A stretch of DNA of 53,502 bases from a virus (lineage: Duplodnaviria; Caudoviricetes): positions 1 through 53,502 of the IMG/VR virus record IMGVR_UViG_3300029811_000124; one strand, 5' to 3'. The position numbers were made by a program, and so were the translations under genes. This document shows positions 13,908 through 48,210 of this stretch, in pieces. How positions within the stretch are numbered: position 1 is the first letter of the stretch; every line of letters begins with the position of its first letter. Under the pieces are notes generated by a model, which did no database searches, was not told where the DNA came from, and saw only the letters and a program-made list of their open reading frames with translations.

Positions 13908-13919
13908 ATTATTACCTCC

Positions 13920-13991: not shown

Positions 13992-14803
13992 GGAATAGTA
14001 TTTTTTCGATAACATTTTAAACACATTTTACTTCCATACAAAAAAGTATTTTGATGAATTTTTTTATTACAAATTATACAATAATATTTCCTTTTTGTTA
14101 CTCCTCCCTTCCAATTACCATTATATTCCCCATTACCTTTGCAAAATGGACATATACAATCTTTTTTGTGATTCGATTTTTTCTCTTTATGAGAATTAGA
14201 CATTTTTCTTTTACTTTCTTCTGTGTGATGTTTACCATAAAAATAATGTTTTTTTCCTTTTTTTGCTTCAGACATTTTTCTTTTAGTTTCTTCAGAATGT
14301 TTTTTACCTGTATTTATTTTAATTAGTTGTTTTCGGTGTTTATCTGATATTTTTTTACCTTTACTACCTAATCCAATTTTTCTTTTAGTTTCTTCAGAAT
14401 GTTTCCTGTTTCTTCCAGCTAAACTTATTTTTTTTCTAGTTTCTAAAGAAGCAACTCTTCCTTTAGCTCTTTCAGATATTTTTAAACGTGTGGCTTTGCT
14501 TGGTTTCCACCCCAAATTACCTTCACCTCCATCAGTAAGGTTATATCCATTTGGTCTTTTTGATTTTAAAAGTTTTATATAATATTTTTCCCTTTCAAAA
14601 AGTTCTTGTTTTGTTTTACACTTATCAATTACTTCCCAAGAAAAATTTTCAATTTTATATTTATTAATAGCTCTATACAATAAATATTTTTGTTTTTGTT
14701 TAGCAGCTTTCAAATGTTGTTTAATTCTTTTTTCTAAAGAGTAACTTGTTTGGCCTACATAAATTTTTTTGTTTATATTATTAGTAATTTTATAAATAAT
14801 CAT
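13973..14803 (-). CDS. GIY-YIG homing endonuclease with NUMOD3 repeats
   Basis: IIYKITN..KIYVGQT, REKYYI, GYNLTDGGEG, repeated KHSEETKRK. Confidence 0.92.
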   Translation of the reverse strand: MIIYKITNNINKKIYVGQTSYSLEKRIKQHLKAAKQKQKYLLYRAINKYKIENFSWEVIDKCKTKQELFEREKYYIKLLKSKRPNGYNLTDGGEGNLGWKPSKATRLKISERAKGRVASLETRKKISLAGRNRKHSEETKRKIGLGSKGKKISDKHRKQLIKINTGKKHSEETKRKMSEAKKGKKHYFYGKHHTEESKRKMSNSHKEKKSNHKKDCICPFCKGNGEYNGNWKGGVTKRKYYCIICNKKIHQNTFLYGSKMCLKCYRKNTIPWNKKL

Positions 14804-18760: not shown

Positions 18761-20881
18761 TCAGAATAAACTAAGCTGATTTTCATCATGTAAATCTATT
18801 GTACTCCATTTTAAACTATCATAAATATTTTCAGCTTTATTAATAATATTCCTTCTAATAATCTCTTTCCAATTGACATCATCTTTATTAAAAACACTAT
18901 CTTTTTTTAATCCTATAACATCAATTATTTTACCATCATTATCATAACCCAACTTTTTGGTGAATATATACCAGAATAACTCTACATTTCTAACATCAAA
19001 TTTATCTCCAAATAGCTTTTTACTATTTTCTCTTGCTCTAACAAATATTGGTTTATAAAGGTATTCTTTGTCTTGAACTTTACAAGGAAACGCTACATCA
19101 ATTAACGGTAAAGTTTTTATTCTTTTCTTTTCATTTTTTATCCACTTTATAATTTCACTTTGAGATTCTTTGTTTAAAACTTTTTCTATTAATTCTCTTT
19201 GGAAGTAAGCCTCATATTTACTACTAGAAGCTCTTTTTACTTCTACTCCTTTTATTTCTGGCTCCTTTTTTCCTTCCACATAACCATAGTAATGGCACAT
19301 CCCGAGAAAAATAATTTTAGTGAAATATCCTTCATAGTCAAATTTTAAATCAATACAATTTTTACCATATTTTCTACCCCAATCCTGTATATATTTATTT
19401 AATTTAGCGGATAAATCTTCCTTTGAGTTATACAGTAAACTGTCAGTATCCCAAAAAATTACTTTATATCCATCTTCTTCTATTCTATCTTTACAATAGA
19501 TTAATAAATCTCTAACTAAAAAAGTAATAGATGATACAATATCATTATTATAAAGCCTAAAATACGGAGATCCGAATACGCCAAAAGCCGAATTTATAAT
19601 TCCTTTTACAGCATCATATTTGTTTTTTAAATCAGGATTTTCCTTTAATTCCTTCTTTAAATTGTTTTTTAACACTAATATTTTTTTAACCATACTAGGA
19701 AGTAAAGCGTTACTATTCTGTTTAAATTTAACTCCATTTATTTCTGTACCTTCTTTTCCTTCTTTTTTATTTATATTTGATTCATCAAGACAAAAATTTA
19801 TTATCATTGAAGGATATGCCGATCCAAGATCAACTTTTCCAACATCAAAAAACATACCATTTTCAGTAACTTCTCTTGTGGCTCCTTTAAATCCTAATTT
19901 TTTAACATCTTTCTTTTTATTTGGAAGGATTATATTCTTTAGCTTTGCTTCTTCTAAGAGCATTGATTCTATTATACGAGAATTCCATTTAAGATCTTCC
20001 CACTTGACCTTAGAGATTCTTCTTATTTCATCATAATAAGGAATAAGTTTATATCTATTCTCTAACTCTACCATCATACTTACATCATCATAATTTCTTA
20101 ATTTTATGTTTTCATTTAACATACTAAAATCAACATCTTTATATACTTTACCCTTACCTAAAAACTTTTCTCCAATATAATCTAAAGTATAACTTGCTTC
20201 TCTCATAAATACTTTACTAAATAATCCTGGACTTTTCTTATTTCCCGAATAATCCACTATACTGATTCCGGCAGGATAAAAAATATCTTTCCCTTCACCC
20301 ATTCTAACACTATTTATAGGACTTATTTTTTTAGCAAAATTTTTAATCCTATTATGGAGATAAGTATAATCAAAGCTTACATTCCAGCTAAACCAGATAT
20401 CCGGTTTAATATCTTGCAAATACTTTACAAATTCATTTAACAATGTTTCCTCATTAGAACACTCACCTAAATACCAAGTATTATACTTTTTAGTAAATGA
20501 ATCATAAGATGTAATACAAGATATTGGATATTTGGCTTGTTCCGGATGTGGGAAATCTTTACACAACACCTCAATATCTATAAATACATACTTAATTGGG
20601 CAAGGTTCTATTTTATCTACTTTATGTATAAGATAATTATTTACATATAAAATATCTGCACTATAACTATCTTCCGATCTAAATTTAGAAACATCTTTAG
20701 GTTCTGATACAAATATCTTTTTTAAAGGAACTCCATCATAACCTATATAACTACCTTTTTGGTCTGGCGCGTAGTAATGAGGGAAAAAGTCAGAATTCTT
20801 TCTTATAATTTGATTTCCTTTGTCGTCTCTGGAAAACAAATAAACTATTTTACCTTTTGAATGTATGTTAGTTAATCGCAT
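18761..20881 (-). CDS. polB: Family B DNA polymerase
   Basis: FIDIE, WNVSFD exonuclease motifs; DLGSAYPS, KGIINSAFG, WDTDS, IKGVE; C-terminal QLSLF. Confidence 0.95.
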   Translation of the reverse strand: MRLTNIHSKGKIVYLFSRDDKGNQIIRKNSDFFPHYYAPDQKGSYIGYDGVPLKKIFVSEPKDVSKFRSEDSYSADILYVNNYLIHKVDKIEPCPIKYVFIDIEVLCKDFPHPEQAKYPISCITSYDSFTKKYNTWYLGECSNEETLLNEFVKYLQDIKPDIWFSWNVSFDYTYLHNRIKNFAKKISPINSVRMGEGKDIFYPAGISIVDYSGNKKSPGLFSKVFMREASYTLDYIGEKFLGKGKVYKDVDFSMLNENIKLRNYDDVSMMVELENRYKLIPYYDEIRRISKVKWEDLKWNSRIIESMLLEEAKLKNIILPNKKKDVKKLGFKGATREVTENGMFFDVGKVDLGSAYPSMIINFCLDESNINKKEGKEGTEINGVKFKQNSNALLPSMVKKILVLKNNLKKELKENPDLKNKYDAVKGIINSAFGVFGSPYFRLYNNDIVSSITFLVRDLLIYCKDRIEEDGYKVIFWDTDSLLYNSKEDLSAKLNKYIQDWGRKYGKNCIDLKFDYEGYFTKIIFLGMCHYYGYVEGKKEPEIKGVEVKRASSSKYEAYFQRELIEKVLNKESQSEIIKWIKNEKKRIKTLPLIDVAFPCKVQDKEYLYKPIFVRARENSKKLFGDKFDVRNVELFWYIFTKKLGYDNDGKIIDVIGLKKDSVFNKDDVNWKEIIRRNIINKAENIYDSLKWSTIDLHDENQLSLF

Positions 20882-24549: not shown

Positions 24550-26082
24550 TTAATACTCCCATTTATTTTCCTTTAACCATTTATTGTATCTTCGCAAAAT
24601 CTGTTCAAAGGTAACCGGCATAAAATCCCAAACATCACAACTTATATTTATAGCGTCCGTGTGTAGATTTCCTTTTCTAATTCTTTTAATTTGCCAAGCA
24701 CTATTACACATAATTATAACTTTACCATTTCTACGGGTAACTATAGTATCCAATGGTACATTAACACACCAAAGAATACCTTGATATTCCCTTTTTACCA
24801 AGTTATCGGTATTAAATGTTGTAAATTGTTTATCCAATAGTATAGTTAAAATATAATTTTGCTTACGATTACTGTTTTTAGTAAGTTTTTTTGCAGAAAT
24901 TGAACATTTATGACCATTTAATACACAAATTTCTTGTAATAAATCAGACTCTATTTTTTTTGATGTAGAAATCTGTATGTATATATGTTTACCTAAATAT
25001 TTAATACCATCGGTATGAGAATATTCTTCTAACAGAATTTTTGCTTGATGTTTAGATACTTTTCTCAAAAATTCTGGCAATCTTTTTCCATCTTTAAAAA
25101 TTTCTATAAATTTCGTTAACTCCTTTGATTTTAATAAATTAATCCTATAAGGTATTAAAATTTGTTGACTCTCTATTTTACATTTATTTATAGTATATTT
25201 AATATTAAGTTTATTTAATAACAATATTAATCTATCTATTTTTCGTTGTTTACTGAGTTTAAAACGTATAAATGGTGTTTTACCATCGTATGATATACTA
25301 CCATCGGCCGCTATCCAAACAATTAATTGTATTTCATCATCTGTTATATTTAAACCATTATAGTTTATATTTCCCGAATTATAGTAGTAATAAATTGTAT
25401 TTTTTTTATCTAACAATCCTTTAGATATACTTTCTTTAAACCCTTTACTATTATGTTTCCTTATATATAATCTATGTTTTTCAGATATCCCAAAATTGGT
25501 TGAACGGGACTCTAAAGTTATTATTGGTTGTTCTGTTTTCTCTATTTTTATATAATTAATATTATTTAATTCCAAATTTTTGGTTAACTTATTAAGAGAT
25601 ACTACCAAATCTGATTTGGTAATATTGGTGTGGTTTTTCCAACCATTTTCAGTTAGTATTTCTGTTTTTTCGTCTAAGCAGTGTACGTGCCCACAGAAGT
25701 TTATATCATAGTTAAAATTAACATGCTCAGGTTTATGTACTAAAAATACTCTTTTTCCACCATATCTAATAACTATATTTTCTATTATAGTTTTACATCC
25801 ATTGTTAACTGTGTGATTACCCTTAATATGGATAATTTTTCCATTTAACTGTTTATCATAATCTATAGCTTTTTTAATAGTACCTTCTCCTTTTTTACCC
25901 CCTGGACTGTTATGAAAATTCCAATCTCCCAAATCAAATATAATATCATCCTTTTTAACCCTGCTATTCCAATTGGAAATTATTTTGGCATCCATTTCCT
26001 CTACATTCTTAAATGGACGATTACAATACCGGATAATATTGGCATGCGAAAAATGTGTATCTGAGATATACCAATTATTCAC
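24550..26082 (-). CDS. Calcineurin-like metallophosphoesterase, intein-containing
   Basis: ISDTHFSH, DLGD, KGNH, H.P, CGHVH then intein, INISCDVWDF.PV. Confidence 0.9.
   Translation of the reverse strand: MNNWYISDTHFSHANIIRYCNRPFKNVEEMDAKIISNWNSRVKKDDIIFDLGDWNFHNSPGGKKGEGTIKKAIDYDKQLNGKIIHIKGNHTVNNGCKTIIENIVIRYGGKRVFLVHKPEHVNFNYDINFCGHVHCLDEKTEILTENGWKNHTNITKSDLVVSLNKLTKNLELNNINYIKIEKTEQPIITLESRSTNFGISEKHRLYIRKHNSKGFKESISKGLLDKKNTIYYYYNSGNINYNGLNITDDEIQLIVWIAADGSISYDGKTPFIRFKLSKQRKIDRLILLLNKLNIKYTINKCKIESQQILIPYRINLLKSKELTKFIEIFKDGKRLPEFLRKVSKHQAKILLEEYSHTDGIKYLGKHIYIQISTSKKIESDLLQEICVLNGHKCSISAKKLTKNSNRKQNYILTILLDKQFTTFNTDNLVKREYQGILWCVNVPLDTIVTRRNGKVIIMCNSAWQIKRIRKGNLHTDAINISCDVWDFMPVTFEQILRRYNKWLKENKWEY
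24703..25680 (-). mobile_element. Intein (326 aa) with LAGLIDADG endonuclease
   Basis: CLDEKTEILTENGWK ... WIAADGS ... YSHTDG ... WCVNV...RRNGKVIIMCN followed by S+1. Confidence 0.9.
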
Positions 26083-28300: not shown

Positions 28301-31183
28301 TCATTTCACTATTATATCATTGTTGGGATTTGTCCCCTCTAATTCATCCTTTCTCATTAATTTTCTAGTCATAAAATTATACGAACAGGGAATTACTACC
28401 TTTTTCCTTTTATTCTTACTTTCTCTCATAACTTCCACTTGAAAATAACCATTAGTTCCATCACCTTCATCTACATATAAATATTTACAAGAAAAAGAAG
28501 TAAACATATTTACCATATTTGAATTGCCCGTAATAAAAACTTTATTTTTTCTTCTAGCTATAAAAGCTCCTGTAGATACTGTTGGACACCAAACAACACC
28601 TTTGTATGGTATTTTGTTGACAGTTTTACCAAAATTATTACTTGAAATTTCCTTCCAATTTTGTTTAAAAACCTGTACATGATGAATAATATTCTTGGTT
28701 TTTTTCCTAGTATAGAAATCAGTGTTATAATATTTTCTAATAATAGCTCTATATCCTAAATGACAACATAAAATTTGAAACCAATCAACAAAATACTTAT
28801 TTTTTTGGTAGAATTGGAAACTATTCCCAGATAACAAAATAGAACCATCTCCACCAATTAAACCTTCAAATAAACTTTCTAATTCTTCCTTTTTTAGCAT
28901 TAACAAATTATAAGAAGGTTTTTTATTATAATCCATAAAGTTCCAAATAATTTCATATATTTTTTCTCTTTTAAATTTACTTCCTCTTTTCAAATAAAAC
29001 CGAATTCTACCTTTTTTTATTGATTCTGTATAACTAATTTTTAAGTTAATCAATATTTCTCTTATACTATCTACCTTTTCTTTATTAACATTATTTGATT
29101 GAGAAATTGTAATTGTTTTTAATTTTTTATCATATGAACCTTCTGTTAAAATCCAACCTATTAAAGATGCTAAGCCTTTACCTATACTGTAGGTAGAGTT
29201 TAAACGACCCCCTAAAGGAATTTTTATTCCACCGTGAGGTCCTAAATTTTTAGATTCTTCAAAATGCCATTCTTTATCCCACCATTTAATATGTTTTTTA
29301 TTATTTTGTCTACGATATTTTAATAACATTTTATGATTTAATGTAAGTAGTTGTGAAAAATATCTATCTTCTATACTAATCATATCTCCATTATAATTAA
29401 ATTTATTAATTTTTGTAGCTAACTCATAAGTAATTATTTCATTTTTAGGATTAAAGCAAGCTATTTTATCTTCCAATTTAATATTTTGTATATTTTTCCA
29501 TCCGTTTTCCGTTAAAGCTTCCGTTTGTTCATCAATACAGGCAAAGAAACTTCCATCCGTTTTAAGTTGAACAAATACTATTAAAATTCCTCCACTTTTA
29601 ACCAACTGTCTAGATAAATGTCCAAATATTTTATCAGTTAGAGCATAATCTTTCGGCATTAGCCAATCTATTATTGTAACGGAATTTTTTTCCAATTCTA
29701 TATTATCAGGATCTGACTCAATAGCATATTTATAATCTCCTTCTTTCAGTCCAAGCGATTGAGATATACTTGCAAAACGATTTCCGGATTCTAAGCAGAC
29801 ATAATAAGGTTTAATATCTTGTTTAACCAATCTTTTTATTATATTTAACGCTATATGTGATTTACCAGTCTTATTTTGTCCACCTATTACAATCATATCT
29901 CCATTTCTAAAAATAGCTATATCGTGAAAATAAGGCATTTTAAAGTCTATTTCAACACATTCTCCCATCCAGGTTTCTTTCCAATCTACTTTTTTTAAGA
30001 TACAAAACATTCTACCTTTTTTTAGAATATATTCTTCTTTAAGTAGATAACTTAAGGCTTTATCTATTCTTTCTTTCTTTATTTCCAAAGCCTCTCTTAA
30101 ATCTCTAGAGGTAGCCTCTCCAACCATTCTTAAATATTCAAGTGTTTTTTTTGTTATTTCTTCATCATCATAGGAAGTATACTTATCCAAACTTCTCATT
30201 ATAGTATTATAAAAATCTTTTTTCTCCACAGGAGGGTCAAGAAATATACTATTAATTAAAAATAAAATATCAGCAGTTTGGTTTATGGAATATTTCTTTC
30301 TTAATATCCCTCCAATATGCATTAAAATATAATGTTGGCCTCCCCCTTTACCTACAATTTTTATAATTTCTTCTGGAGAGATATTAATATCTTTGAAATC
30401 CCAATTTTCTTTTTTCTCAAGAGAAGACTTCCAATTTTTAGTTTGGGATAAAATAAAATCCTTAACTTCAGAAGGCATTTCTATTATATCCTTAAAACTC
30501 ATAGTCCTGCCAACTCCTTCTACTATGGAAGGATGAGCAACTACCTGGCCTCCTAAATTTTCCAAATCAATTTTTAAATCACTTATTCTACTTTTCTTTA
30601 AATCTTCGGTATATTTAAAAAATAAATGTATTCCATTTTTAGTTTTTTGGGTTAAAGTTTTTGGTACATATTTTTCTAACACTTCAGGAATATTTTGACT
30701 GTCAATATCAACCACGGTAATGTTGCTACATTTCCCTGTTTTAATCCCTATATTACTTCCTCTATCTAACCATTGCATCCATTCTTCTTTATTGATATGT
30801 TTTTTATTTACCCAATCTTTTTCAATTGGTATCTTGCCATCTTTAACTATAGGAACTAAATCAAAACCATTCTTTTCATAGAAACTTAAAGCATTATCTA
30901 TATCCTTTTCAGTAATTATATCTAACTCCAATAACTCCTTAACATAATTTTCTATATTATCATCATTCCATTCTTTCTTATCTTCTTCAAGTATTCTTAC
31001 TATATCAAATAAATTTCCTATCTTTTGGCAAGACATACAGAATAGACTAAAATCAATAAAAGGTCTTAAACTAGCAATAGGTTTATTACAGTTAGGACAA
31101 ATATACATACCGCCTATATTTTTTAAATCTTTCTTTTTTAAATACTCTTCTGTATAATTAAATATTTTCCTCATTTTTCTCAC
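28301..31183 (-). CDS. Zinc-finger + Prim-Pol primase + RecA-type helicase fusion, intein-containing, with NPN C-terminal tag
   Basis: CPNC..CMSC; NIGIKTG..VVDID, TKNGIHLFF (bifunctional primase-polymerase); GQNKTGKS, IIDW; ends GTNPNNDIIVK. Confidence 0.85.
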   Translation of the reverse strand: MRKMRKIFNYTEEYLKKKDLKNIGGMYICPNCNKPIASLRPFIDFSLFCMSCQKIGNLFDIVRILEEDKKEWNDDNIENYVKELLELDIITEKDIDNALSFYEKNGFDLVPIVKDGKIPIEKDWVNKKHINKEEWMQWLDRGSNIGIKTGKCSNITVVDIDSQNIPEVLEKYVPKTLTQKTKNGIHLFFKYTEDLKKSRISDLKIDLENLGGQVVAHPSIVEGVGRTMSFKDIIEMPSEVKDFILSQTKNWKSSLEKKENWDFKDINISPEEIIKIVGKGGGQHYILMHIGGILRKKYSINQTADILFLINSIFLDPPVEKKDFYNTIMRSLDKYTSYDDEEITKKTLEYLRMVGEATSRDLREALEIKKERIDKALSYLLKEEYILKKGRMFCILKKVDWKETWMGECVEIDFKMPYFHDIAIFRNGDMIVIGGQNKTGKSHIALNIIKRLVKQDIKPYYVCLESGNRFASISQSLGLKEGDYKYAIESDPDNIELEKNSVTIIDWLMPKDYALTDKIFGHLSRQLVKSGGILIVFVQLKTDGSFFACIDEQTEALTENGWKNIQNIKLEDKIACFNPKNEIITYELATKINKFNYNGDMISIEDRYFSQLLTLNHKMLLKYRRQNNKKHIKWWDKEWHFEESKNLGPHGGIKIPLGGRLNSTYSIGKGLASLIGWILTEGSYDKKLKTITISQSNNVNKEKVDSIREILINLKISYTESIKKGRIRFYLKRGSKFKREKIYEIIWNFMDYNKKPSYNLLMLKKEELESLFEGLIGGDGSILLSGNSFQFYQKNKYFVDWFQILCCHLGYRAIIRKYYNTDFYTRKKTKNIIHHVQVFKQNWKEISSNNFGKTVNKIPYKGVVWCPTVSTGAFIARRKNKVFITGNSNMVNMFTSFSCKYLYVDEGDGTNGYFQVEVMRESKNKRKKVVIPCSYNFMTRKLMRKDELEGTNPNNDIIVK
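28523..29539 (-). mobile_element. Intein (339 aa) with LAGLIDADG endonuclease
   Basis: CIDEQTEALTENGWK, LIGWILTEGS, GLIGGDGS, WCPTV...RRKNKVFITGN followed by S+1. Confidence 0.92.
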
Positions 31184-37951: not shown

Positions 37952-38191
37952 TTATTCTTTTATTATTATTTTATTATTAGGATTTCCACTCCCAATTTTT
38001 TTCAACTTTAATTCGTCACCATATCCATAACATACACCATTTATATAACCTGGACATCCATAGTTTTCATTACAACAATAACACTTTTCAATTGGACAAC
38101 ATTTAATTTCTTTTATAACAAATCTTATTTTTCTCACAAAAGGAAGAGTTTCTACCATATCTCCAATCTTTAGTTTTTTTAGTTTCTTCAT
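37952..38191 (-). CDS. NPN-tag family small protein (Cys-rich SH3/KOW-like)
   Basis: LKIGDMVE ... CPGYINGVCYG ... GSGNPNNKIIIKE. Confidence 0.75.
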   Translation of the reverse strand: MKKLKKLKIGDMVETLPFVRKIRFVIKEIKCCPIEKCYCCNENYGCPGYINGVCYGYGDELKLKKIGSGNPNNKIIIKE

Positions 38192-38208: not shown

Positions 38209-38466
38209 TTATACTTCTAATACTATATTGGAATTTATACTTTTCTCTCCAATCTTTGTTAAACTAAAACCTGGAGTATATCCAAAACACTTGCCATTTA
38301 TATGACCCGGACAAATACTTATATCATATCCATCTGTACATCTTTCATTATGAGCTAAACAATCACACTTTGTTGTTGACTGTATAAGAAATTTACATCC
38401 AATCTTGTTCAAATTATAGTGGTTTTTGTTAATCTCAACAAAATCTCCAATCTTAAATTTACTCAT
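38209..38466 (-). CDS. NPN-tag family small protein (Cys-rich, degenerate tag)
   Basis: FKIGDFVE ... CPGHINGKCFG ... KSINSNIVLEV. Confidence 0.7.
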   Translation of the reverse strand: MSKFKIGDFVEINKNHYNLNKIGCKFLIQSTTKCDCLAHNERCTDGYDISICPGHINGKCFGYTPGFSLTKIGEKSINSNIVLEV

Positions 38467-38716
38467 ATGTTTCTTTTACAATTATATTATTATTAGGGTT
38501 AGATATTCCAATTTTTTTCAAATGATAAACATTCCCCCTTCCAAAACACCTATCATTTACATAACCAGGACAAATATAACTTTTACCATAAGCACGTAAA
38601 CATTCTTCCCTATTTCTACAATCTGAAATTGTTTTTATAATAAATTTATATTTACTAACTCCAAAATTATCTATTACTACATCTCCCACTTTAAATTTCA
38701 CTTTATTTTCTCCCAA
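38459..38716 (-). CDS. NPN-tag family small protein (Cys-rich)
   Basis: FKVGDVV ... CPGYVNDRCFG ... GISNPNNNIIVKE. Confidence 0.75.
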   Translation of the reverse strand: MGENKVKFKVGDVVIDNFGVSKYKFIIKTISDCRNREECLRAYGKSYICPGYVNDRCFGRGNVYHLKKIGISNPNNNIIVKETYE

Positions 38717-39534
38717 TATCTATCTTTAGCTTCATCTATTGTTACATCATAATATATTAAAGTTGATTGAATATTTTTATGCCCCAATAGTTTTTGAGCA
38801 ACTCTAATATTTAATCCTTTTCTAGCTAACAATCTCCCAAATCCGTGCCTCAAAATATGTAGAGTTAATCTTTTTCTGTTGGGAACAAAATCCTTTAAAT
38901 CATTTATTAAATATGCCAATTGTCCAATAGTTATATTAAAGGCGTTGGTTATTTCTGGATAAGTATTAAAATATAAATCAACATTTCTCTTTACTTTTTC
39001 AGTAAAAGGAACTTCTCTCTCCATTCTATTTTTAATCTTACCTTTAACATATACTGTTAATCTATCTAAATCAATATTCTCTCTTTTTAAATTAATAAAT
39101 TCTTGCTTTCTCAGTCCTGTAAAAAATAAAAAATATAATATTGCTCTCAACTTTATTGGGTCTATAAAATAACAAAAACTCATTCCCATAGATACTATTT
39201 CATCTAACTCTTCCTCTGTAATGTAGGAATGAATCTTTTTTGTTTCTTTCAACATTTTAATTTTATAGATATATTTTAATAATTCTTCATTACAGCTACC
39301 CTCTCTTATTAAAAATTTATAAAAACATCTTATAGCTTTGATATCATTATTTATAGTATTATTTTGCCATCCTTTGTTTTTTAAATATATAATATATTCC
39401 ATATAGTTTTCAAATGTCAAATTAATATAATCTATACCTTTCTCACCACAGAATTTTAAAAAACTTCTAATCTTAATATAATAGGTATAATGATAATCAA
39501 CTATTTTTAAATAGTCTTCAAATTTTTTTAACAT
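38698..39534 (-). CDS. Tyrosine recombinase (XerC/D-like)
   Basis: TGLRKQE, K, HILRH, LLGH, T..Y catalytic residues. Confidence 0.93.
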   Translation of the reverse strand: MLKKFEDYLKIVDYHYTYYIKIRSFLKFCGEKGIDYINLTFENYMEYIIYLKNKGWQNNTINNDIKAIRCFYKFLIREGSCNEELLKYIYKIKMLKETKKIHSYITEEELDEIVSMGMSFCYFIDPIKLRAILYFLFFTGLRKQEFINLKRENIDLDRLTVYVKGKIKNRMEREVPFTEKVKRNVDLYFNTYPEITNAFNITIGQLAYLINDLKDFVPNRKRLTLHILRHGFGRLLARKGLNIRVAQKLLGHKNIQSTLIYYDVTIDEAKDRYWEKIK

Positions 39535-39537
39535 AAT

Positions 39538-39810
39538 TTATAATGCCCTCACTACTATTTTATTATTGGGATTTGTTTCGCCAATTATTTTTAGATTGTT
39601 ATAAGTTTCACCTCCCCCCGGATATTCACACAATACCCAATAGTCGTTACATCCTCCACCATTAACTTTGTCTTCTTTTTTCACACAACAACCATTTAAA
39701 TGATTTCGTTTACAATTACCTTTTATACCATTTATACATTTCACTATTCCTTTTGAGGAGTAATTAAAAGATATATAATCTCCTACTTTTAAATCTCTTG
39801 TAGTTATCAT
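39538..39810 (-). CDS. NPN-tag family small protein
   Basis: LKVGDYI ... GETNPNNKIVVRAL. Confidence 0.75.
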   Translation of the reverse strand: MITTRDLKVGDYISFNYSSKGIVKCINGIKGNCKRNHLNGCCVKKEDKVNGGGCNDYWVLCEYPGGGETYNNLKIIGETNPNNKIVVRAL

Positions 39811-39820
39811 ATTATTCCTT

Positions 39821-40057
39821 TTATTCCTTAATTATTATATTGTTATTAGGATTTATAGAATCTATTTTATATATTATTCTTCTACCTTTATCATCAAATT
39901 CATTATAATTGGTATTTACAGAATTGTCAAAATGAATTTCATAAACTGTACCTTTGTTGGTCCCAAAAGAATTAAAAATAACTCCTTGAAAATCTCTAAG
40001 ATTTCTCTCTTTATCTTTATTAGTATTCCAAAAAACTCTATCTCCTACTTTCAACAT
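39821..40057 (-). CDS. NPN-tag family small protein
   Basis: LKVGDRV ... SINPNNNIIIKE. Confidence 0.75.
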   Translation of the reverse strand: MLKVGDRVFWNTNKDKERNLRDFQGVIFNSFGTNKGTVYEIHFDNSVNTNYNEFDDKGRRIIYKIDSINPNNNIIIKE

Positions 40058-40076: not shown

Positions 40077-40358
40077 TTACATCTTTATTATTATATTATT
40101 ATTCGGATTAGATATTCCAGTTAATTCCAAATCGCCTTCTATATAACCATTTGTTATCCTTTCATCCCATTCATCCCATTTAACTCTATATTTAAAAAGA
40201 CTGTCATTACGAACTTCAATAATTCTTCCTACTGTCTTACCACAGATACCTCCCCATAGTGGATTATATTTTGAATCAGAAAAACGTCCACTTATATATT
40301 TAACTTTATCTCCAATTTTAAAACATCTCTTTGAATCTTTCTCTAAAAAACTTGGCAT
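40077..40358 (-). CDS. NPN-tag family small protein
   Basis: FKIGDKVKY ... YRVKWD ... GISNPNNNIIIKM. Confidence 0.75.
   Translation of the reverse strand: MPSFLEKDSKRCFKIGDKVKYISGRFSDSKYNPLWGGICGKTVGRIIEVRNDSLFKYRVKWDEWDERITNGYIEGDLELTGISNPNNNIIIKM
40087..40118. repeat. 32-bp perfect direct repeat (second copy 50246-50277)
   Basis: attattatattattattcggattagatattcc at both loci; encodes GISNPNNNII. Confidence 0.9.
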
Positions 40359-41040
40359 ATAACTTCCTCCTTCTTCTATTCAGTCTTGGTGCACTATTAA
40401 CTTCTAATATATAAAATTTTCTATCTAAACCTAACATAATATCTACCGCTCCAAAATCATAGTTTAGTGCTTTAATAGCTTCAATCCCTAATTTTTTGAG
40501 AGTTTCGTTATGTTCTCCATCATAATCCACTTGTCCCCATCCTCTATCTCTTGACCAAATATGAGGATGATTGGAACTATCTTCAAATTTAAACTTTGTA
40601 GAAATACCAATTACCTCGTCTCCACAAACATGAACTCTAAATTCAGTTTCTTTAGGTATGTATTCCACAAAATAATGTCTTTTATTCACCCTTTTTTTCC
40701 TTCTTAGCCAACTTACTCTATTTCTAATATAAATAGCCTCTTTCCCTTTACAATGAAAATATTTTCTTGCAATCACAGGATAGCTATATGTTCTACTTCT
40801 ATTCCAATCAATTAAAGAAACATTTGGAGCATTTAACCCAGCTTCTTTAAATTTTATGATTTGAGTATATTTATTATTAATAAGTTTAGCATTTAAATTG
40901 GCTTTATTTCTTACATCTGTTCTACCATAATTTACTAAAAAATTAACATCTTCCGGTATAACATATCCCCCTTCACAATCCTTTAAATGAAAAGCCAAAT
41001 TAACTGCTGTTTCTCCTTTTCTTGTTCCTACTATGTACAT
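40318..41040 (-). CDS. ATP-grasp ligase (RimK-like)
   Basis: NKY, YPVIARK, EYIP..EFRVHV, DFGAVDI, YILEVNSAP. Confidence 0.9.
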   Translation of the reverse strand: MYIVGTRKGETAVNLAFHLKDCEGGYVIPEDVNFLVNYGRTDVRNKANLNAKLINNKYTQIIKFKEAGLNAPNVSLIDWNRSRTYSYPVIARKYFHCKGKEAIYIRNRVSWLRRKKRVNKRHYFVEYIPKETEFRVHVCGDEVIGISTKFKFEDSSNHPHIWSRDRGWGQVDYDGEHNETLKKLGIEAIKALNYDFGAVDIMLGLDRKFYILEVNSAPRLNRRRRKLYAKFFRERFKEMF

Positions 41041-41057: not shown

Positions 41058-41309
41058 TTATAACTCTAATAGTATATCACTATTTGGATTACCTCTAAAT
41101 ATCTTTAACCAATTTCCTCCATCATTTGCCAATGCCCAAGTATTATTCCATCCTGAACCTCTTTGACCATCTTCTCTTTCTACAGAAAAATAGCCTCTCT
41201 CTTTATTTTTTCTTACCACTTTTCCTTTAACGTGAAGTTCGGAGAGAGATAAAAATACTATTTCATCTCCTACTTTTAATTTTCTAATTATATCTATTTC
41301 AGATCTCAC
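41058..41309 (-). CDS. NPN-tag family small protein
   Basis: LKVGDEI ... RGNPNSDILLEL. Confidence 0.75.
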   Translation of the reverse strand: MRSEIDIIRKLKVGDEIVFLSLSELHVKGKVVRKNKERGYFSVEREDGQRGSGWNNTWALANDGGNWLKIFRGNPNSDILLEL

Positions 41310-42330
41310 TTTCTAACTCCTCTATTGTCAAAAGACCTTTTACGGTTATACGTCTACCTCTAGCTGTTCTCGAAATTAAATTTTCTCCCAAAAGATATGG
41401 CTCTATACAATAGAGATAGTTTTCTGTAGAAGTATTTAAGTAACTTGCTAAACCCTGAAGTCCAACAGTTTTCTCTTGAGCAACATACTTTAAGATTTTT
41501 AAATCTTTATTAGTATAACCATCTTTAATTATATCAAAACTATTAATTACTTCTTTAATGTCTCCTCTAAAGTATATAGTTGCTTCTAATAATCTTAACA
41601 AAGTTCTTGGAGTTCCTCTACAATTTTTAGATATTATTTTATATATCTCCGGATGTAATCCATCGAAAGGAAACATCATTTTTCTATACTGTTTACATAT
41701 TTTAGTCAAATCTTCCAAATCATAGTTTTCTAATTCAATAATAATTTTAAACCTATCATAAAAAGGTCTTCTGTCTTTTAAAATTTCTCCCAATTCAGTA
41801 GTAGCTCCCATTAATGTAAAAGGCTCAATACTTTCCCCTTCAAAATAAAAATCTTCCATTATAGTATATAATTTCTCTACTTCATCCCTTCCAATTGAAT
41901 GAATTTCATCTAAGAACAAAATCCCTCCATTTACCCTTCTTACTGATTCTATAAATTTTTCAAAATTTTTCATTTCACTAGCTATATTTTCCACCAAAGA
42001 AACTTCAAGTTCATTGGCAATTATTTTAGCTAAAGTTGTTTTACCCATTCCTGGATTTCCGTGAATAAGAGTATGAGGAAAAACCAATTTTCTTTCAATA
42101 ATAGCTCCAATATAATTATCGAAAATTTTCTTAGCCCTCTTTTGACCAATATATTCATCAAAAGTCTTAGGTCTAAATAAACTAGGTTTGGTAGTTATTT
42201 TGTTTTCCAGATTTATTTTGTCTTCATCTAGAAAATCAAATAACTTTTTAACTTTATTAAACATTTTCCTACTTCTTCTCCTTTTTTTACAGTTTAATAA
42301 TTTGAATAAGTAAGTAAACAATCTGGACAT
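41299..42330 (-). CDS. ruvB: RuvB-like AAA+ ATPase
   Basis: RPKTFDEYIGQ, GNPGMGKTTLA, FLDEIH, LY..MEDF, FTLMGATT, DRF, RGTPR, EPYL..RT.RGR. Start probably MFNKVK. Confidence 0.9.
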   Translation of the reverse strand: MSRLFTYLFKLLNCKKRRRSRKMFNKVKKLFDFLDEDKINLENKITTKPSLFRPKTFDEYIGQKRAKKIFDNYIGAIIERKLVFPHTLIHGNPGMGKTTLAKIIANELEVSLVENIASEMKNFEKFIESVRRVNGGILFLDEIHSIGRDEVEKLYTIMEDFYFEGESIEPFTLMGATTELGEILKDRRPFYDRFKIIIELENYDLEDLTKICKQYRKMMFPFDGLHPEIYKIISKNCRGTPRTLLRLLEATIYFRGDIKEVINSFDIIKDGYTNKDLKILKYVAQEKTVGLQGLASYLNTSTENYLYCIEPYLLGENLISRTARGRRITVKGLLTIEELESEI

Positions 42331-43316
42331 AAAGGAAACTCATTATATTTTTTAACCAATTTTGAAATCATAAATTCTTCATTACAAGCACCACAATAAT
42401 CAGTTTCCAATTTTAGAAAACCTCTTCTAACTTTTTGTCTACATTTTCTACATAGAAAAAATCTCTTTTCCTTTTCATTCTGAATAGGTCTTACATTTTT
42501 ATAAGAATAACAATTCTCACATTCACCATAATATAAATCATCATCTCCTTTACCAACTTTAGAATATAACCCCTTTACTTTTTCTCTTTTATCTTTTTTA
42601 TCTTTTTTCTCCTCAACTTTCGTTTCTTGATTTCCTTTCAATCTCGAATTTCGAGAATTTTCTAATAATTTTGTTCGACTTCCCTCATACCTATACTTAT
42701 TAAATCCACAATAAAGAACTCTTGTTTCATAACTTCTATTACTATAATAAATTTCTCCACTATCTACTTTTTCTTTTACAAACTCTCCTAGAAACAATAA
42801 TGAACCATCTTTATTCAAAAAAGTAAGTTTGTTATAACTCCCTATCATTTCTACGATTAATTTCTGGAGGACGTCATTTTTATAAATATTTTTTCTCACC
42901 ATTTTATCACTTAATATTGTCATAATAAAATTTTGAGTATCACTTAAATCTCCCATTTTGCTGTTGAAACCATACATTACTCCATTGTGTGCTACTGCTA
43001 AATCACAGTTCATACTAACTTTCCTAATTACCTTTTCATCTTTTGTCAAAGGAAAAGGATGTCTATTCCCTTCATCTACTAATCCACATGTTGCATTTCT
43101 AAAATGAACAATTAAACTATCTTCTTTTTCAATATGCTTTCTCAACCAGAAAATTAAATGTTCTACATTAACAAAGTCTTTTTTAATTATAACTTTATTA
43201 GTTTCTTTCTTCCAATAACAAATTCCAGCCCCATCACTGTTACCAGAATAACCATTTCTCAAATGTTCGTCATTCGGTAAACTAACACCTTTAGCTTTAG
43301 CAACAATTAAACACAT
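42294..43316 (-). CDS. Class II glutamine amidotransferase (Ntn) with C-terminal zinc ribbons
   Basis: N-terminal MC, N.DGAG, HFR.AT.G, HPF, AHNG, SDT. Confidence 0.9.
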   Translation of the reverse strand: MCLIVAKAKGVSLPNDEHLRNGYSGNSDGAGICYWKKETNKVIIKKDFVNVEHLIFWLRKHIEKEDSLIVHFRNATCGLVDEGNRHPFPLTKDEKVIRKVSMNCDLAVAHNGVMYGFNSKMGDLSDTQNFIMTILSDKMVRKNIYKNDVLQKLIVEMIGSYNKLTFLNKDGSLLFLGEFVKEKVDSGEIYYSNRSYETRVLYCGFNKYRYEGSRTKLLENSRNSRLKGNQETKVEEKKDKKDKREKVKGLYSKVGKGDDDLYYGECENCYSYKNVRPIQNEKEKRFFLCRKCRQKVRRGFLKLETDYCGACNEEFMISKLVKKYNEFPLCPDCLLTYSNY

Positions 43317-43357: not shown

Positions 43358-44785
43358 CTACAATGCAGATTTTTTAAAATAACCTACCATATGACCATAT
43401 CTATGTTGTTCTCCCGCCCATTTTTTGAAACCAATCCAAGATTTAGCTTTTAGTAAATAAACAGCAGAAACATCCTTTATAAAATGTGATATTGCATCAC
43501 AATATTGTAAAGTAGCTAAAAATCTATCAATATTTAAAGTTCCTCTAAATATTCTTAATTCAATAGTTGGCTTACCAGTTTCAATGTTTAAACAAATATG
43601 TCTTCCACCTTGAGATTGATTTTTATTAAAATATTTATCCTTCGAAAAATTCTCACTTGCACAAAACTCATTTCCAGTAGATCCTCTTTTTGAAAAACTA
43701 TATATCTTTTCGTAATTAACAGAGTGAAATATCCTCATTTTTTTAATATCTTTAGGAGTGAAAAAACTCTTGGATAAATGTATATGTAATCCACATTTTC
43801 CTCCCCAGTAAGATACAAAACTATTTTCTTTTAGCCATTTCAAAATATATTTGAATCTCATATTTTTATGAGCGTGTTGCAAACTAAAAGGGTGAGTTAC
43901 AATTTCAAATCCTATTTTGTGACCATTATTATCTCTCAAACTACCATCTTCTTTAAAATAAAAATCACTATAAAGTTTTTCCTGAGAAAGAAAATCTTTT
44001 AGATCCTCAGCCTTATTTTCACAATCTTTACATTGTACTTCTAATTCCAAGCCCATCATTAAATCATTATCCCATTTGTTTTTATTAAACTTTAATTTTC
44101 TGGGCATATATGTATAATTTTTAATTATTTTTTCCTCTTCAAAACAAGAAGTGCAATAATAAAGGTTTCTTCTTTCATTAAATCTTAAATTTCTTTTGAA
44201 AAATAAATCTCCACATTTACCACAAATATTGAAAGTAGATTCATAGCAACCTTTACAATAATCTTTATTTTCCAAACCTTTCTTTGTTTCTTTAAGTTTT
44301 TTCTCTTTATTACAAACTACACAAATAGTAAATTGTTTTTTATAACAATTATTACAGTAAAAATCTTTGGCAAGAGAAAACTTTCCTAAAGTTTTTAGCA
44401 AAAACTCTCCACAATGTTTACATATCTCGTAATTCTTAAAACAACTTCTACAAACCCTATAGCCTTGGATTTTTTTCATTAGAGAGCCTCTACATATTTC
44501 CCCACAATCTTCACAAGAAAAATGTTTAATGCCTCCAATAATTCTACCGTTCATATTTCTTTTTATTTTAGTAATACTGGACAAATATACCGGCCAGATA
44601 GGATTTTTTTCTCCAAAATCCTTGCTTAGTTTGTAGAATCTAATCATAGCTATTTTGTTGTTACTAGTTTCATCAACAGCAAACCCCACAATCCTGCCTT
44701 CAGATCCTTCACTACTATAAATATAACTCTTACCTCTTCCGTTAACCTTCACATAACTACCAATCCTCAAATCTGCACTAGCCAC
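43358..44785 (-). CDS. Putative amidoligase (COOH-NH2 ligase type 2) with N-terminal SH3-like and multiple CxxC repeats
   Basis: GLELEV, KEDGSL, FEIVTHP, CGLHIH.S, TIELRIFRGT. Confidence 0.88.
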   Translation of the reverse strand: MASADLRIGSYVKVNGRGKSYIYSSEGSEGRIVGFAVDETSNNKIAMIRFYKLSKDFGEKNPIWPVYLSSITKIKRNMNGRIIGGIKHFSCEDCGEICRGSLMKKIQGYRVCRSCFKNYEICKHCGEFLLKTLGKFSLAKDFYCNNCYKKQFTICVVCNKEKKLKETKKGLENKDYCKGCYESTFNICGKCGDLFFKRNLRFNERRNLYYCTSCFEEEKIIKNYTYMPRKLKFNKNKWDNDLMMGLELEVQCKDCENKAEDLKDFLSQEKLYSDFYFKEDGSLRDNNGHKIGFEIVTHPFSLQHAHKNMRFKYILKWLKENSFVSYWGGKCGLHIHLSKSFFTPKDIKKMRIFHSVNYEKIYSFSKRGSTGNEFCASENFSKDKYFNKNQSQGGRHICLNIETGKPTIELRIFRGTLNIDRFLATLQYCDAISHFIKDVSAVYLLKAKSWIGFKKWAGEQHRYGHMVGYFKKSAL

Positions 44786-48179: not shown

Positions 48180-48210
48180 ACTGATCACCTCCTTTTTTGT
48201 TAGATTTTTA

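What the first reader, a model, noticed from the sequence alone, without database searches (positions are those of the whole stretch)
28301..28345. The primase-helicase carries the same NPN tag as the small accessory proteins
The 960-aa replication enzyme ends ELEGTNPNNDIIVK*, matching the tag on 14 tiny genes 10-22 kb away. The tag is therefore portable and not just part of the small-protein fold. It may link the accessory family to the replisome or to a shared receptor; the small proteins could be cargo, competitors or decoys.
Basis: partly seen in the sequence, partly recalled or inferred. Interest (0 to 1): 0.7.

Follow-up and report, generated by a model that had tools for sequence, protein, structure and literature searches.

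The report
Helicase carries a small-protein family's tail
In this uncultured phage the replication helicase ends in the same 12-residue tail as 14 tiny barrel-shaped proteins, most likely because it captured the end of one of their genes; whether the tail does anything on the helicase is still open.

Summary
The 960-aa PrimPol-helicase (28301..31183, minus strand) ends ...DELEGTNPNNDIIVK*. A matrix built from 11 small-protein tails scores this end at 23.2 bits. The best unrelated hit in six frames scores 9.9 bits, and chance probability is 9e-9 per position. The tail belongs to a family of 14 (perhaps 15) small proteins in the window and 27 more in metagenomes. These are five-stranded SH3/KOW-like barrels (AlphaFold2 pLDDT 85.6). 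The tail is modelled as an unstructured extension after the last strand. It is the only family-specific conserved element, and its codons vary synonymously. Similarity between helicase and family is limited to the last 12 residues. The tail lies in the C-extein behind a 339-aa intein, so it would stay on the spliced enzyme.

None of 105 helicase homologs has the tail. Two related phages have similar small-gene arrays with different tails (19 and 7 genes), and their helicases lack those tails. All three arrays are interleaved with amidoligase, amidotransferase, ATP-grasp and RuvB-like genes.

My best reading is a portable C-terminal peptide motif captured once by the helicase. A neutral fossil is nearly as likely. 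No receptor was identified.

The parts
28304..28339 (-). The tail on the helicase: residues 949-960, EGTNPNNDIIVK, followed by the stop codon at 28301..28303
   Evidence: PSSM score 23.2 bits. The family HMM aligns only here, 19 bits.
28301..31183 (-). PrimPol-helicase ORF, 960 aa with the intein (621 aa once spliced). It has an N-terminal Cys4 zinc motif, a Prim-Pol domain, a winged-helix domain and a P-loop ATPase.
   Evidence: Pfam Prim-Pol E 2.3e-18, DnaB_C weak at 0.03. PHROG primase/polymerase families. PDB ORF904 of pRN1, E 0.0012. 105 homologs at 29-58% identity.
30515..30889 (-). Prim-Pol domain, residues 99-223
28523..29539 (-). Intein, residues 549-887 (339 aa), running from CIDEQTE... 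to ...VFITGN with Ser at +1. It contains a LAGLIDADG endonuclease domain and interrupts the ATPase domain.
   Evidence: It is absent at exactly this site in 6 of 6 aligned intein-less homologs. LAGLIDADG_3 scores 25.1 bits against a cut-off of 22.5. PDB AceL NrdHF intein, E 0.0048. All 65 phage records found by tblastn match only this part. Coordinates.
28304..28522 (-). C-extein, residues 888-960. It holds the conserved end of the helicase core (...IPCSYNFMTRKLMRKDE) followed by the tail.
37952..38191 (-). Small family member, 79 aa, tail GSGNPNNKIIIKE
38209..38466 (-). Small family member, 85 aa, degenerate tail GEKSINSNIVLEV
38459..38716 (-). Small family member, 85 aa, tail GISNPNNNIIVKETYE
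39538..39810 (-). Small family member, 90 aa, tail GETNPNNKIVVRAL
39821..40057 (-). Small family member, 78 aa, tail DSINPNNNIIIKE
40077..40358 (-). Small family member, 93 aa, tail GISNPNNNIIIKM
41058..41309 (-). Small family member, 83 aa, tail FRGNPNSDILLEL
44787..45023 (-). Small family member, 78 aa, tail GKTNPNSNIIIKEV
45016..45270 (-). Small family member, 84 aa, variant tail VGCPNSGIIVKYG
45267..45491 (-). Small family member, 74 aa, tail MEDNPNNDILL
45481..45699 (-). Small family member, 72 aa, variant tail AGCPNSGIIVKYEE
45696..45953 (-). Small family member, 85 aa, tail GTSNPNNNIIIKL
46041..46316 (-). Small family member, 91 aa, variant tail GNVNCPDIVVKGWDD
50236..50439 (-). Small family member, 67 aa, tail GISNPNNNIIIKI. 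This is the member that was modelled.
51367..51564 (-). Marginal family member, 65 aa, with no clear tail
   Evidence: HMM E 1.1e-5
40318..41040 (-). RimK-like ATP-grasp ligase lying inside the small-gene array
   Evidence: Pfam RimK 5.7e-6. PHROG 2599, 6e-23. NCBIfam rimK_fam 8.6e-10 and MvdD 4.7e-6, both below their cut-offs.
41299..42330 (-). RuvB-like AAA+ protein lying inside the array
   Evidence: Pfam RuvB_N 1.6e-27 and RuvB_C 6.3e-16
42294..43316 (-). Class-II glutamine amidotransferase-like protein lying inside the array
   Evidence: Pfam GATase_4, 4.1e-5
43358..44785 (-). Amidoligase_2 protein lying inside the array
   Evidence: Pfam PF12224, 3.5e-7. PHROG 16683, 6.9e-30.

Best explanation
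The last 12 residues of the helicase-primase are a true copy of the C-terminal tail that defines a family of small SH3/KOW-like phage proteins. In those proteins the tail is a flexible extension behind the last barrel strand. It has a turn-prone [ST]-N-P-N-[NS] stretch followed by a strand-prone I-I-[IV]-K. It is the only element that stays constant while the barrel diverges. It therefore behaves as a short linear peptide motif that most likely docks on one conserved partner, probably by adding a strand.

The helicase acquired it in a single event. Recombination or a deletion fused the last ~12 codons of a family gene, in frame, directly behind the conserved end of the helicase core (...RKDEL). 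That replaced the short, variable and often acidic tail that homologs have there. Because the tail lies in the C-extein it survives intein splicing, so the hexamer would display six copies on its C-terminal face. The helicase would then meet the same partner as the small proteins.

Shown here: the match is not chance; the similarity is limited to the tail; the tail is modelled outside the fold; the tail peptide is conserved across the family, while the Pro codon takes all four synonymous forms among the window's copies; and the helicase tail is unique to this lineage. Inferred: the capture mechanism, the docking, and any present function on the helicase. The partner is unknown.
For: The match is not chance: 23.2 bits against 9.9 for the best unrelated site, P 8.7e-9 per 13-mer.

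The similarity is limited to the tail. The family HMM aligns only the last 12 residues of the helicase. DNA identity between the helicase and the paralogs is 0.64 on average in the 36-nt tail but 0.32-0.33 in both flanks, which is background.

The tail lies outside the fold in the AlphaFold2 model: the barrel (residues 8-53) has pLDDT >= 90 and the tail has no secondary structure, with pLDDT falling from 74 to 55. KOW and SH3 matches with rmsd of about 2 A end at residue 53-55.

The tail is the conserved element. In the 38 of 41 family sequences that could be anchored, P is present in 38, the following N in 38, the I at +4 in 37 and the K at +7 in 30. Only 0-4 residues follow the K position; two sequences end one residue short of it. 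24 of 27 non-window members keep N-P-N.

Selection appears to act on the peptide. The Pro codon occurs as CCT, CCC, CCG and CCA among the window's copies. Against 38459..38716, the helicase tail differs at 5 synonymous and 1 non-synonymous codon out of 9, read by eye.

Homologs end in variable tails right after the same conserved core: median 9 aa, range 0-39, net negative in 52 of 105. That position evidently tolerates replacement.

There is a precedent. The C-terminal tails of T7 gp4 helicase dock on the polymerase and set processivity (PMC12593628, passages read).
Against: None of 105 helicase homologs has the tail. In 2 of 2 related phages whose small-gene arrays have their own tails, the helicase lacks the local tail. 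The small-protein system therefore does not generally need a tagged helicase.

No receptor is known. No long protein other than this helicase carries the tail among all the proteins retrieved.

The retention of consensus residues on the helicase could simply mean the capture was recent.

Low AlphaFold2 confidence in the tail is not proof of disorder, and the alignment has only 41 rows.

No close relative of this phage was available to test whether the helicase tail is conserved over time.
Confidence: 0.45

Rival explanations
1. Neutral fossil. The same capture event happened: a family gene once lay beside the helicase gene, and a deletion fused its last codons in frame. On the helicase, however, the tail does nothing. 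It is tolerated because this end of the enzyme is free to vary.
For: Homolog tails after the conserved core vary from 0 to 39 aa in length and share no sequence. The tail is found on 0 of 105 homologs, and the local tail is found on 0 of 2 helicases in related phages with similar arrays. DNA identity between the helicase tail and the paralog tails (mean 0.64, maximum 0.72) is what any paralog shows to the others (mean 0.68). That fits a donor gene that was destroyed in the event. With 14 copies, the genome offers many donors.
Against: All core residues (N-P-N-N, I-I-V-K) are intact, although the codons differ from every paralog at synonymous sites. If the tail is an autonomous docking peptide in the small proteins, an exposed copy on a hexamer would bind the same partner whether or not it was selected for that. 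A harmful interaction would have been purged.
Confidence: 0.33
2. Recognition handle for the neighbouring ligase module. The tail is the constant element by which the co-located amidoligase, amidotransferase, ATP-grasp or RuvB-like proteins recognise many variable small proteins, as a leader peptide does in ribosomal peptide systems. Having captured the handle, the helicase becomes a client and is modified or remodelled.
For: In 3 of 3 phages examined, the small-gene arrays are interleaved with Amidoligase_2, class-II amidotransferase, RimK-like ATP-grasp and RuvB-like genes. The tails differ between the three phages but are constant within each: 14, 19 and 7 genes. The ATP-grasp also weakly matches MvdD/MvdC-type peptide maturases (E 4.7e-6 and 1.6e-4), though below the cut-offs.
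Against: Adjacency in a variable accessory region is weak evidence. These enzyme families are described from many phages (search listing), and whether those phages have such small proteins was not checked. The tails have no conserved acidic or acceptor residue: three window tails contain no D or E, and the final residue varies. That argues against a graspetide-like ring or a RimK-like C-terminal addition with a fixed end. The bodies are well-folded barrels, not peptide cores.
Confidence: 0.1
3. A DNA- or RNA-level element. The conserved 3' ends are cassette boundaries, promoters or translational-coupling signals, and the peptide is a by-product.
For: DNA repeat families D1-D3 and D8 cover the tails of subsets of paralogs. 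Each tail is followed within about 20 nt by the next gene's ribosome-binding site and start codon. The N-I-I codons can spell TATAAT.
Against: The Pro codon uses all four third bases, and the N, I and K codons vary. Non-window members conserve the peptide, with N/S and N/D/K exchanges. The helicase 3' end is not a member of any DNA repeat family. Only 4 tails overlap promoter-like matches, all weak at 9 of 12; the region has 70 sites against 52.7 +/- 7.1 in shuffles. The motif occurs only in frame at gene ends.
Confidence: 0.06
4. Chance convergence in an N/I/K-rich proteome, or an assembly artefact joining the helicase to a paralog's end.
For: The genome is 27.9% G+C, and N, I and K are the commonest residues. 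Unrelated proteins can end in a similar way: a 367-376-aa marine protein family ends G-x-I-N-P-N-E-G-I-I-[IV]-K-[IL].
Against: P is 8.7e-9 per position, and about 6e-6 hits are expected at 130 gene ends. No exact repeat longer than 13 nt is shared with the helicase 3' region.
Confidence: 0.02

Closest known systems
Acidic C-terminal tails of phage T7 gp4 helicase-primase (and of the T7 single-strand-binding protein gp2.5)
   Same: Both are short flexible tails at the very end of a hexameric helicase-primase, and the T7 tail is a docking peptide shared with another phage protein. [quoted passage not shown] That gp2.5 shares this kind of tail is recalled and comes from no call.
   Different: The tail here is not acidic (net charge -1) and has no terminal aromatic residue. 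It is shared with 14 small barrel proteins of unknown function rather than with the SSB. Its partner is unknown.
Hub-binding C-terminal motifs of replication proteins (clamp-binding QL[SD]LF and PIP-type motifs; SSB C-terminal tip)
   Same: One short terminal peptide is carried by many otherwise unrelated clients of one hub. That SSB tails act as interaction interfaces is from PMC9917605 (passages read). The clamp motif consensus is recalled.
   Different: The sequence is unrelated. In this phage the DNA polymerase (18761..20881) itself ends ...ENQLSLF, so the clamp-type motif is a different one. The 232-aa ORF next to the clamp loader could not be confirmed as a clamp.
SH3-like small beta-barrels (KOW of Spt5/NusG, SH3, Tudor-like C-terminal domains of UvrD/PcrA, SH3-like 2B domains of Pif1/RecD)
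   Same: The body of the small proteins is modelled as a five-stranded barrel. VIA-align gives Z 6.0, rmsd 2.0 A over 47 residues to Spt5 KOW2-3, and Z 5.3, rmsd 2.1 A to NusG. Foldseek's best rows are SH3 domains with probability up to 0.98. The Atlas structure rows are Pif1/RecD SH3-like domains.
   Different: No match is significant (Foldseek E >= 0.05; Z < 8). No Pfam family is hit. None of these folds carries this tail.
Precursor families of ribosomal peptide systems (many paralogs with a constant recognition sequence and a variable core, encoded beside ATP-grasp or other maturases)
   Same: There are many paralogs with constant ends and a variable middle, interleaved with an ATP-grasp ligase and amidoligases. 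The comparison itself is recalled.
   Different: The bodies are folded domains. The tail has no conserved donor or acceptor residues. The maturase-family matches are below their cut-offs.
PrimPol-helicase fusion proteins (pRN1 ORF904 type Prim-Pol domain with a P-loop helicase)
   Same: The enzyme that bears the tail belongs here: Pfam PF09250 E 2.3e-18; PDB 1rni E 0.0012; 105 homologs.
   Different: It has an intein in the ATPase domain and the foreign tail at its end.

Membership tests
Small SH3-like 'N-P-N tail' family (no Pfam or PHROG name; alignments A1/A2) | C-terminal tail G-x-[ST]-N-P-N-[NS]-x-I-I-[IV]-K within 0-4 residues of the end | tested here: met
   The helicase end scores 23.2 bits with a matrix that excludes it, and no residue follows the K. 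One residue is missing between G and N, as in three non-window members.
Small SH3-like 'N-P-N tail' family (no Pfam or PHROG name; alignments A1/A2) | N-terminal K-F-K-[IV]-G-D-x-V strand and a five-stranded barrel body of 65-95 aa | tested here: not met
   The family HMM aligns only the last 12 residues of the helicase with confidence. The full-length HMM search of six frames does not list the helicase. The helicase shares the tail but is not a family member.
PrimPol-helicase | Prim-Pol catalytic domain | tested here: met
   PF09250, 67.6 bits against a cut-off of 22.8, residues 99-223
PrimPol-helicase | P-loop helicase/ATPase domain | tested here: inconclusive
   DnaB_C scores only 14.1 bits against a cut-off of 27. 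A Walker-A-like GQNKTGKS is visible, and the core is conserved in 105 homologs.
Intein with homing endonuclease | Insertion absent from homologs at the same site, beginning with Cys and ending with Asn followed by Ser/Thr/Cys | tested here: met
   Residues 549-887 are missing in 6 of 6 aligned homologs. The insert starts at C549 and ends ...TGN followed by S888.
Intein with homing endonuclease | LAGLIDADG endonuclease domain | tested here: met
   PF14528, 25.1 bits against a cut-off of 22.5
Intein with homing endonuclease | Penultimate His before the terminal Asn | tested here: not met
   The sequence reads ...ITGN, with Gly in that place. That some inteins lack this His is recalled. Splicing was not tested.
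Clamp-binding C-terminal motif (QL[SD]LF type; consensus recalled) | Q-L-[SD]-L-F or a similar Q/hydrophobic/aromatic pentapeptide at the end | tested here: not met
   The tail has no Q and no aromatic residue. The phage polymerase ends QLSLF.
T7-type acidic helicase tail | Strongly acidic tail | tested here: not met
   The net charge of the 13 residues after the core is -1.
SH3-like / KOW fold (body of the small proteins) | Five-stranded partly open barrel that superposes on solved SH3/KOW domains | tested here: inconclusive
   The model has five strands. Best low-rmsd match is Z 6.0 at 2.0 A over 47 residues to a KOW domain, but a Z under 8 may reflect only a common arrangement. Foldseek E >= 0.05.
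Graspetide-type precursor peptides | Conserved Thr/Ser/Lys and Asp/Glu partners in the modified segment | tested here: not met
   The window tails GISNPNNNIIIKI, GTSNPNNNIIIKL and GISNPNNNIIIKM contain no Asp or Glu.
Ubiquitin-like (ThiS/MoaD) tags | Beta-grasp fold ending in Gly-Gly | tested here: not met
   The model is all-beta with no helix, and no member ends in GG. A separate ThiS-like gene that does end in GG exists at 47952..48188.

The most novel reading that the evidence does not exclude
A group of large AT-rich phages carries arrays of 7-19 small SH3-like proteins built as a variable barrel plus a constant, lineage-specific C-terminal handle. The handle is read by the amidoligase, amidotransferase, ATP-grasp and RuvB-like module with which the arrays are always interleaved. 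The module modifies or loads whatever bears the handle. In this phage the replicative helicase has captured the handle and so has been wired into that system. This would be a natural example of a protein being re-addressed by acquiring a 12-residue tag.
Probability: 0.12. Interest if true: 0.8.

Novelty: new variant of a known kind. Interest (0 to 1): 0.5.

Why it matters
Short terminal peptides organise replisomes: the T7 helicase tail, SSB tips and clamp-binding motifs all work this way. Here a different tail, otherwise confined to a large undescribed family of small phage proteins, sits on a replicative helicase. If it is functional, it identifies a new docking code in phage replication or host takeover. 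It would also give a direct handle, a 12-residue peptide, for fishing out the partner of a family that no database currently explains.

Even as a fossil it has value. It documents how a modular tail moves between genes, and it marks the tail as autonomous rather than part of the fold.

The wider pattern found on the way deserves study in its own right. Three phages carry arrays of small barrel proteins whose tails are constant within a phage and different between phages, always interleaved with amidoligase and ATP-grasp genes.

Tried and rejected
Complex prediction. The small protein (A4) was folded against helicase residues 888-960. The queue was full, and the job was accepted. The verdict was 'no answer' (score 0.01). 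It counts neither for nor against binding.

Context of other N-P-N-tail members.
- The search for related loci with the helicase found no close relative in viral contigs.
- The family alignments A1 and A2 were too variable for that tool.
- The narrower A3 matched 599, 427 and 179 pattern stretches in viral, metagenome and genome contigs, and none was confirmed.
- Degenerate DNA patterns for the tail returned only unrelated sequence. These hits were a tail-fibre-like gene, a 367-376-aa marine protein family ending G-x-I-N-P-N-E-G-I-I-[IV]-K-[IL], ThiG internal sites and short spurious frames.
- The family HMM found no convincing member in any of these loci: none at E <= 1e-3 in the metagenome and viral loci, and in the genome loci only six weak hits (E 5e-4 to 0.01) to spurious frames of 30-85 aa.

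Long proteins with the tail. It gave six multi-SH3-repeat proteins without the tail. This is weak evidence, since only 8000 candidates were scored.

Homology of the three arrays. hhalign of A2 against A6 gave 93.9% probability, but only over the first 17 columns. The arrays are called counterparts on synteny plus the shared N-terminal motif, not on full-length homology.

Clamp idea. I considered that the tail binds the sliding clamp and set this aside, because the polymerase ends QLSLF. The 232-aa candidate clamp matched nothing in PHROGs, PDB sequences, Pfam or NCBIfam.

Fold searches.

Synonymous/non-synonymous count. A formal count on the tail codons was not obtained. Only differences read by eye are given.

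Literature.
- A search for the tail strings found one unrelated maize paper.
- The amidoligase/phage search gave 36 papers, of which I saw only the listing.
- In the jumbo-phage review PMC7824862, the passages read say nothing about this family.
- Iyer et al. 2009 on amidoligases is not held, so what I say about it is recalled.


Full report
What the window is. The window is a whole IMG/VR virus record of 53,502 bases, 27.9% G+C, estimated at about half of a genome, with nearly all long ORFs on the minus strand. It holds the replication and nucleotide-metabolism part of a large phage: a family-B DNA polymerase, a clamp loader, a UvsX-like recombinase, ribonucleotide reductase, dCMP deaminase, several homing endonucleases, and an accessory region with NAD-salvage, ThiS/ThiF-like and amidoligase-type genes.

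The observation. Positions 28301..28345 (minus strand) encode ELEGTNPNNDIIVK and the stop codon of a 960-aa ORF. Fourteen small ORFs of 67-93 aa lie between 37952 and 50439 and end in a related tail. Ten have N-P-N-[NS]-x-I. Four have degenerate variants (C-P-N-S-G, N-C-P-D, S-I-N-S-N). A fifteenth ORF is a marginal member.

A position matrix made from 11 small-protein tails, without the helicase, scores the helicase end at 23.2 bits, exactly at the C-terminus. The best unrelated site in six frames scores 9.9 bits. With the window's own residue frequencies the probability of 23.2 bits or more is 8.7e-9 per 13-mer. That gives 3.8e-4 expected hits in 44,322 six-frame positions. None of 20 million random 13-mers reached 20 bits.

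A mis-join at a repeat is unlikely. The helicase 3' region shares no exact word longer than 13 nt with the rest of the window.

The enzyme that bears the tail. The protein has an N-terminal Cys4 motif and a Prim-Pol domain (PF09250, E 2.3e-18; PDB ORF904 of pRN1, E 0.0012). It also has a winged-helix region and a P-loop ATPase.

Residues 549-887 are an intein. They are missing at exactly this place in 6 of 6 aligned homologs. The insert begins with Cys, ends ...TGN followed by Ser, and holds a LAGLIDADG domain above Pfam's cut-off. All 65 phage records found by tblastn match only this part. The tail lies in the 73-residue C-extein, so it would remain on the spliced 621-aa enzyme.

A search with the N-extein returned 105 other proteins at 29-58% identity. 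After the shared core end (I-P-C-x-Y-x-W-x-T-K-E-L-x-R-I-D-E) their tails are 0-39 residues long, with a median of 9. They are unrelated to one another. Net charge is negative in 52, zero in 40 and positive in 13. None has the tail. In the window's protein the 12 foreign residues start right after the core end (...RKDEL, the counterpart of R-I-D-E-L).

The family that owns the tail. Neither Pfam nor PHROGs names the small proteins. A profile search of 1.84 billion representatives gave 137 hits. Together with two proteins from the earlier word-index search, 37 proteins of 66-90 aa were in hand. Ten are the window's own and 27 come from elsewhere. Of those 27, 24 keep N-P-N-[NS]-x-I-I-[IV]-K and the other three keep degenerate versions.

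The remaining hits are long proteins made of repeated SH3-like units, matched through the N-terminal strand only. None has the tail.

Across the 38 of 41 aligned sequences that could be anchored, the tail is by far the most conserved part: P in 38, the following N in 38, I at +4 in 37, K at +7 in 30. Only 0-4 residues follow the K position; two sequences end one residue short of it. The middle of the protein varies freely, with cysteine-rich inserts in some members.

The conservation is of the peptide. Among the window's copies the Pro codon is CCT, CCC, CCG or CCA, and the N, I and K codons vary too. The helicase tail differs from that of 38459..38716 at five synonymous codons and one non-synonymous codon out of nine, counted by eye. 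A formal count was not obtained.

Is the tail part of the fold? With 15 sequences, AlphaFold2 gave a weak model (pLDDT 66.8) whose last seven residues were below 50. With 41 sequences, the 67-aa member 50236..50439 gave pLDDT 85.6. That model has five strands between residues 8 and 53 at pLDDT 90 or more. Residues 54-67 (R-G-I-S-N-P-N-N-N-I-I-I-K-I) have no secondary structure, and confidence falls from 74 to 55.

Structure searches place the body among SH3, KOW and Tudor-like barrels. The best low-rmsd matches are Spt5 KOW2-3 (Z 6.0, 2.0 A, 47 residues) and NusG (Z 5.3, 2.1 A). All stop at residue 53-55. Foldseek lists SH3 domains first but nothing at E <= 0.001. The ESM Atlas lists SH3-like domains of Pif1/RecD helicases and viral hypothetical proteins. 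These scores are middling, so they describe the fold class only.

The family HMM aligns to the helicase only over its last 12 residues (19 bits). DNA identity between the helicase and the paralogs is 0.64 in the tail and 0.32-0.33 in both flanks, which is background.

Related phages. Forty IMG/VR records encode helicase homologs. The family profile found weak matches in four of them.

Two were read in full. G034 is 109 kb; its helicase ends ...LENAIDED. It has 19 small ORFs with the same N-terminal K-F-K-[IV]-G-D-x-V start but a different constant tail, K-K-I-I-K-[EP]-[YF]-G-I-V-x-F-[CM]-K-K-Y-Y. G013 is 49 kb; its helicase ends ...RIDEEENGKV. It has seven such ORFs ending K-R-K-G-Y-A-L-W-I-H-N-I-E-x-K-R-K.

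HMMs of these local tails hit no large protein in either record. The next-best E-values were 0.29 and 0.46, among 390 and 249 ORFs. So in 2 of 2 related phages with such arrays, the helicase does not carry the local tail.

Profile-profile comparison links the window's family to these only through the first 17 columns (93.9% probability). I treat them as counterparts on that basis plus synteny. In all three phages the small genes are interleaved with Amidoligase_2, class-II amidotransferase, RimK-like ATP-grasp and RuvB-like AAA+ genes, next to the sigma-like, candidate-clamp and clamp-loader genes.

How it most likely works. The small proteins combine a variable barrel with a constant, exposed, terminal peptide. 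That is the signature of a short linear motif read by one conserved partner. An Asn-Pro-Asn turn followed by three beta-branched residues suggests binding by strand addition.

The helicase has the peptide at a position where its relatives carry disposable tails. The simplest origin is a single fusion with the 3' end of a family gene. Helicase C-terminal tails can matter: in T7 they dock on the polymerase and set processivity (PMC12593628, passages read). Shared terminal peptides are also how SSB and clamps gather clients (PMC9917605, passages read; clamp motifs recalled).

The tail here is not of those kinds. It is not acidic, and the phage polymerase carries its own QLSLF end.

I put 0.45 on a functional, portable docking tail captured by the helicase. 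I put 0.33 on the same capture being neutral. That rival is favoured by the tail's absence from all homologs and from the helicases of the two related phages, and by the fact that the helicase tail looks like just another paralog tail at the DNA level. I put 0.10 on the tail being the recognition handle of the neighbouring ligase module, 0.06 on a DNA- or RNA-level element, and 0.02 on chance or artefact.

The one complex prediction I could run, small protein against the helicase C-extein, gave no verdict.

What is known and what is new. The enzyme, the intein and the fold class are ordinary. I found no description of the tail or the family. There are no Pfam or PHROG names. A full-text search for the tail strings found one unrelated paper. 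The passages I read in a comparative review of jumbo phages do not mention it.

A terminal peptide shared between a replicative helicase and other phage proteins is a known kind of arrangement, as in T7. This is a new variant of it, with an unrelated sequence, an unexpected set of co-bearers and an unknown partner. The more unusual result is the pattern behind it: arrays of small barrel proteins with tails that are constant within a phage and different between phages, always embedded in an amidoligase and ATP-grasp module.

Limits. No close relative of this phage and no genome context for the 27 non-window family members could be obtained. The structural statements rest on predictions from a 41-row alignment. 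No experiment or expression data were used.

Noticed in passing
G034 (loci L247-L252), about 28.6-43.3 kb; G013 (loci L253-L255), about 13.7-22.1 kb: Two related IMG/VR phages carry arrays of 19 and 7 small ORFs. They have the same K-F-K-[IV]-G-D-x-V start as the window's family but their own constant C-terminal tails (...IKPYGIVxFCKKYY and ...KRKGYALWIHNIExKRK). They are interleaved with the same amidoligase, amidotransferase, ATP-grasp and RuvB-like genes as in the window.
   Followed up: partly
window 47952..48188 and 48986..49657: There is a ThiS/MoaD-like 78-aa protein ending in Gly-Gly (Pfam ThiS 2.2e-9) and a ThiF/E1-like adenylyltransferase (Pfam ThiF 2.3e-22). An unassigned 254-aa ORF (48211..48975) lies between them. 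This may be a phage ubiquitin-like activation pair.
   Followed up: partly
window 18761..20881: The family-B DNA polymerase ends ...ENQLSLF, which matches the clamp-binding consensus as I recall it. The polymerase of G034 ends ...QMQLF.
   Followed up: no
window 24550..26082: A 510-aa phosphoesterase-like ORF matches PHROG 32482, which also matched the intein part of the helicase, and an RNR-named PHROG (12229), over its residues 66-462. It may hold a second intein or endonuclease insertion.
   Followed up: no
window 13302..14803 and 3728..6079: Several homing-endonuclease genes (HNH, GIY-YIG) lie among the replication and ribonucleotide-reductase genes. Direct repeats D4 and D11 lie inside the 13.7-14.4 kb endonuclease region.
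   Followed up: no
window 46731..47294: A 187-aa ORF at the edge of the array shows two weak matches to the small-family profile (E 9.5e-5, two stretches). It looks like a tandem SH3-like protein, and it has no tail.
   Followed up: no
window 50446..51087 and 52521..53345: An isochorismatase/nicotinamidase-like gene and an NAD synthetase gene suggest phage-encoded NAD salvage.
   Followed up: no
loci L004, L009, L011, L013, L018 and about 30 others (metagenome contigs): A 367-376-aa protein common in these metagenome contigs (several are TARA records) ends G-x-I-N-P-N-E-G-I-I-[IV]-K-[IL]. Its C-terminus looks like the phage tail but belongs to an unrelated, larger protein. This shows that turn-plus-strand endings of this type can arise independently.
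   Followed up: partly
loci L155 and L158 (two Clostridia genome bins, about 26% G+C): Two ORFs of 57 and 103 aa end ...NPN[IN]NPNKNIIIK directly at the stop. They did not match the family profile (E <= 0.01), and I did not examine them further.
   Followed up: no
window 38698..39534: A tyrosine-recombinase (integrase-like) gene sits in the middle of the small-gene array (PHROG 1, E 7e-42). The ORF at the matching place in G034 had no Pfam hit.
   Followed up: no
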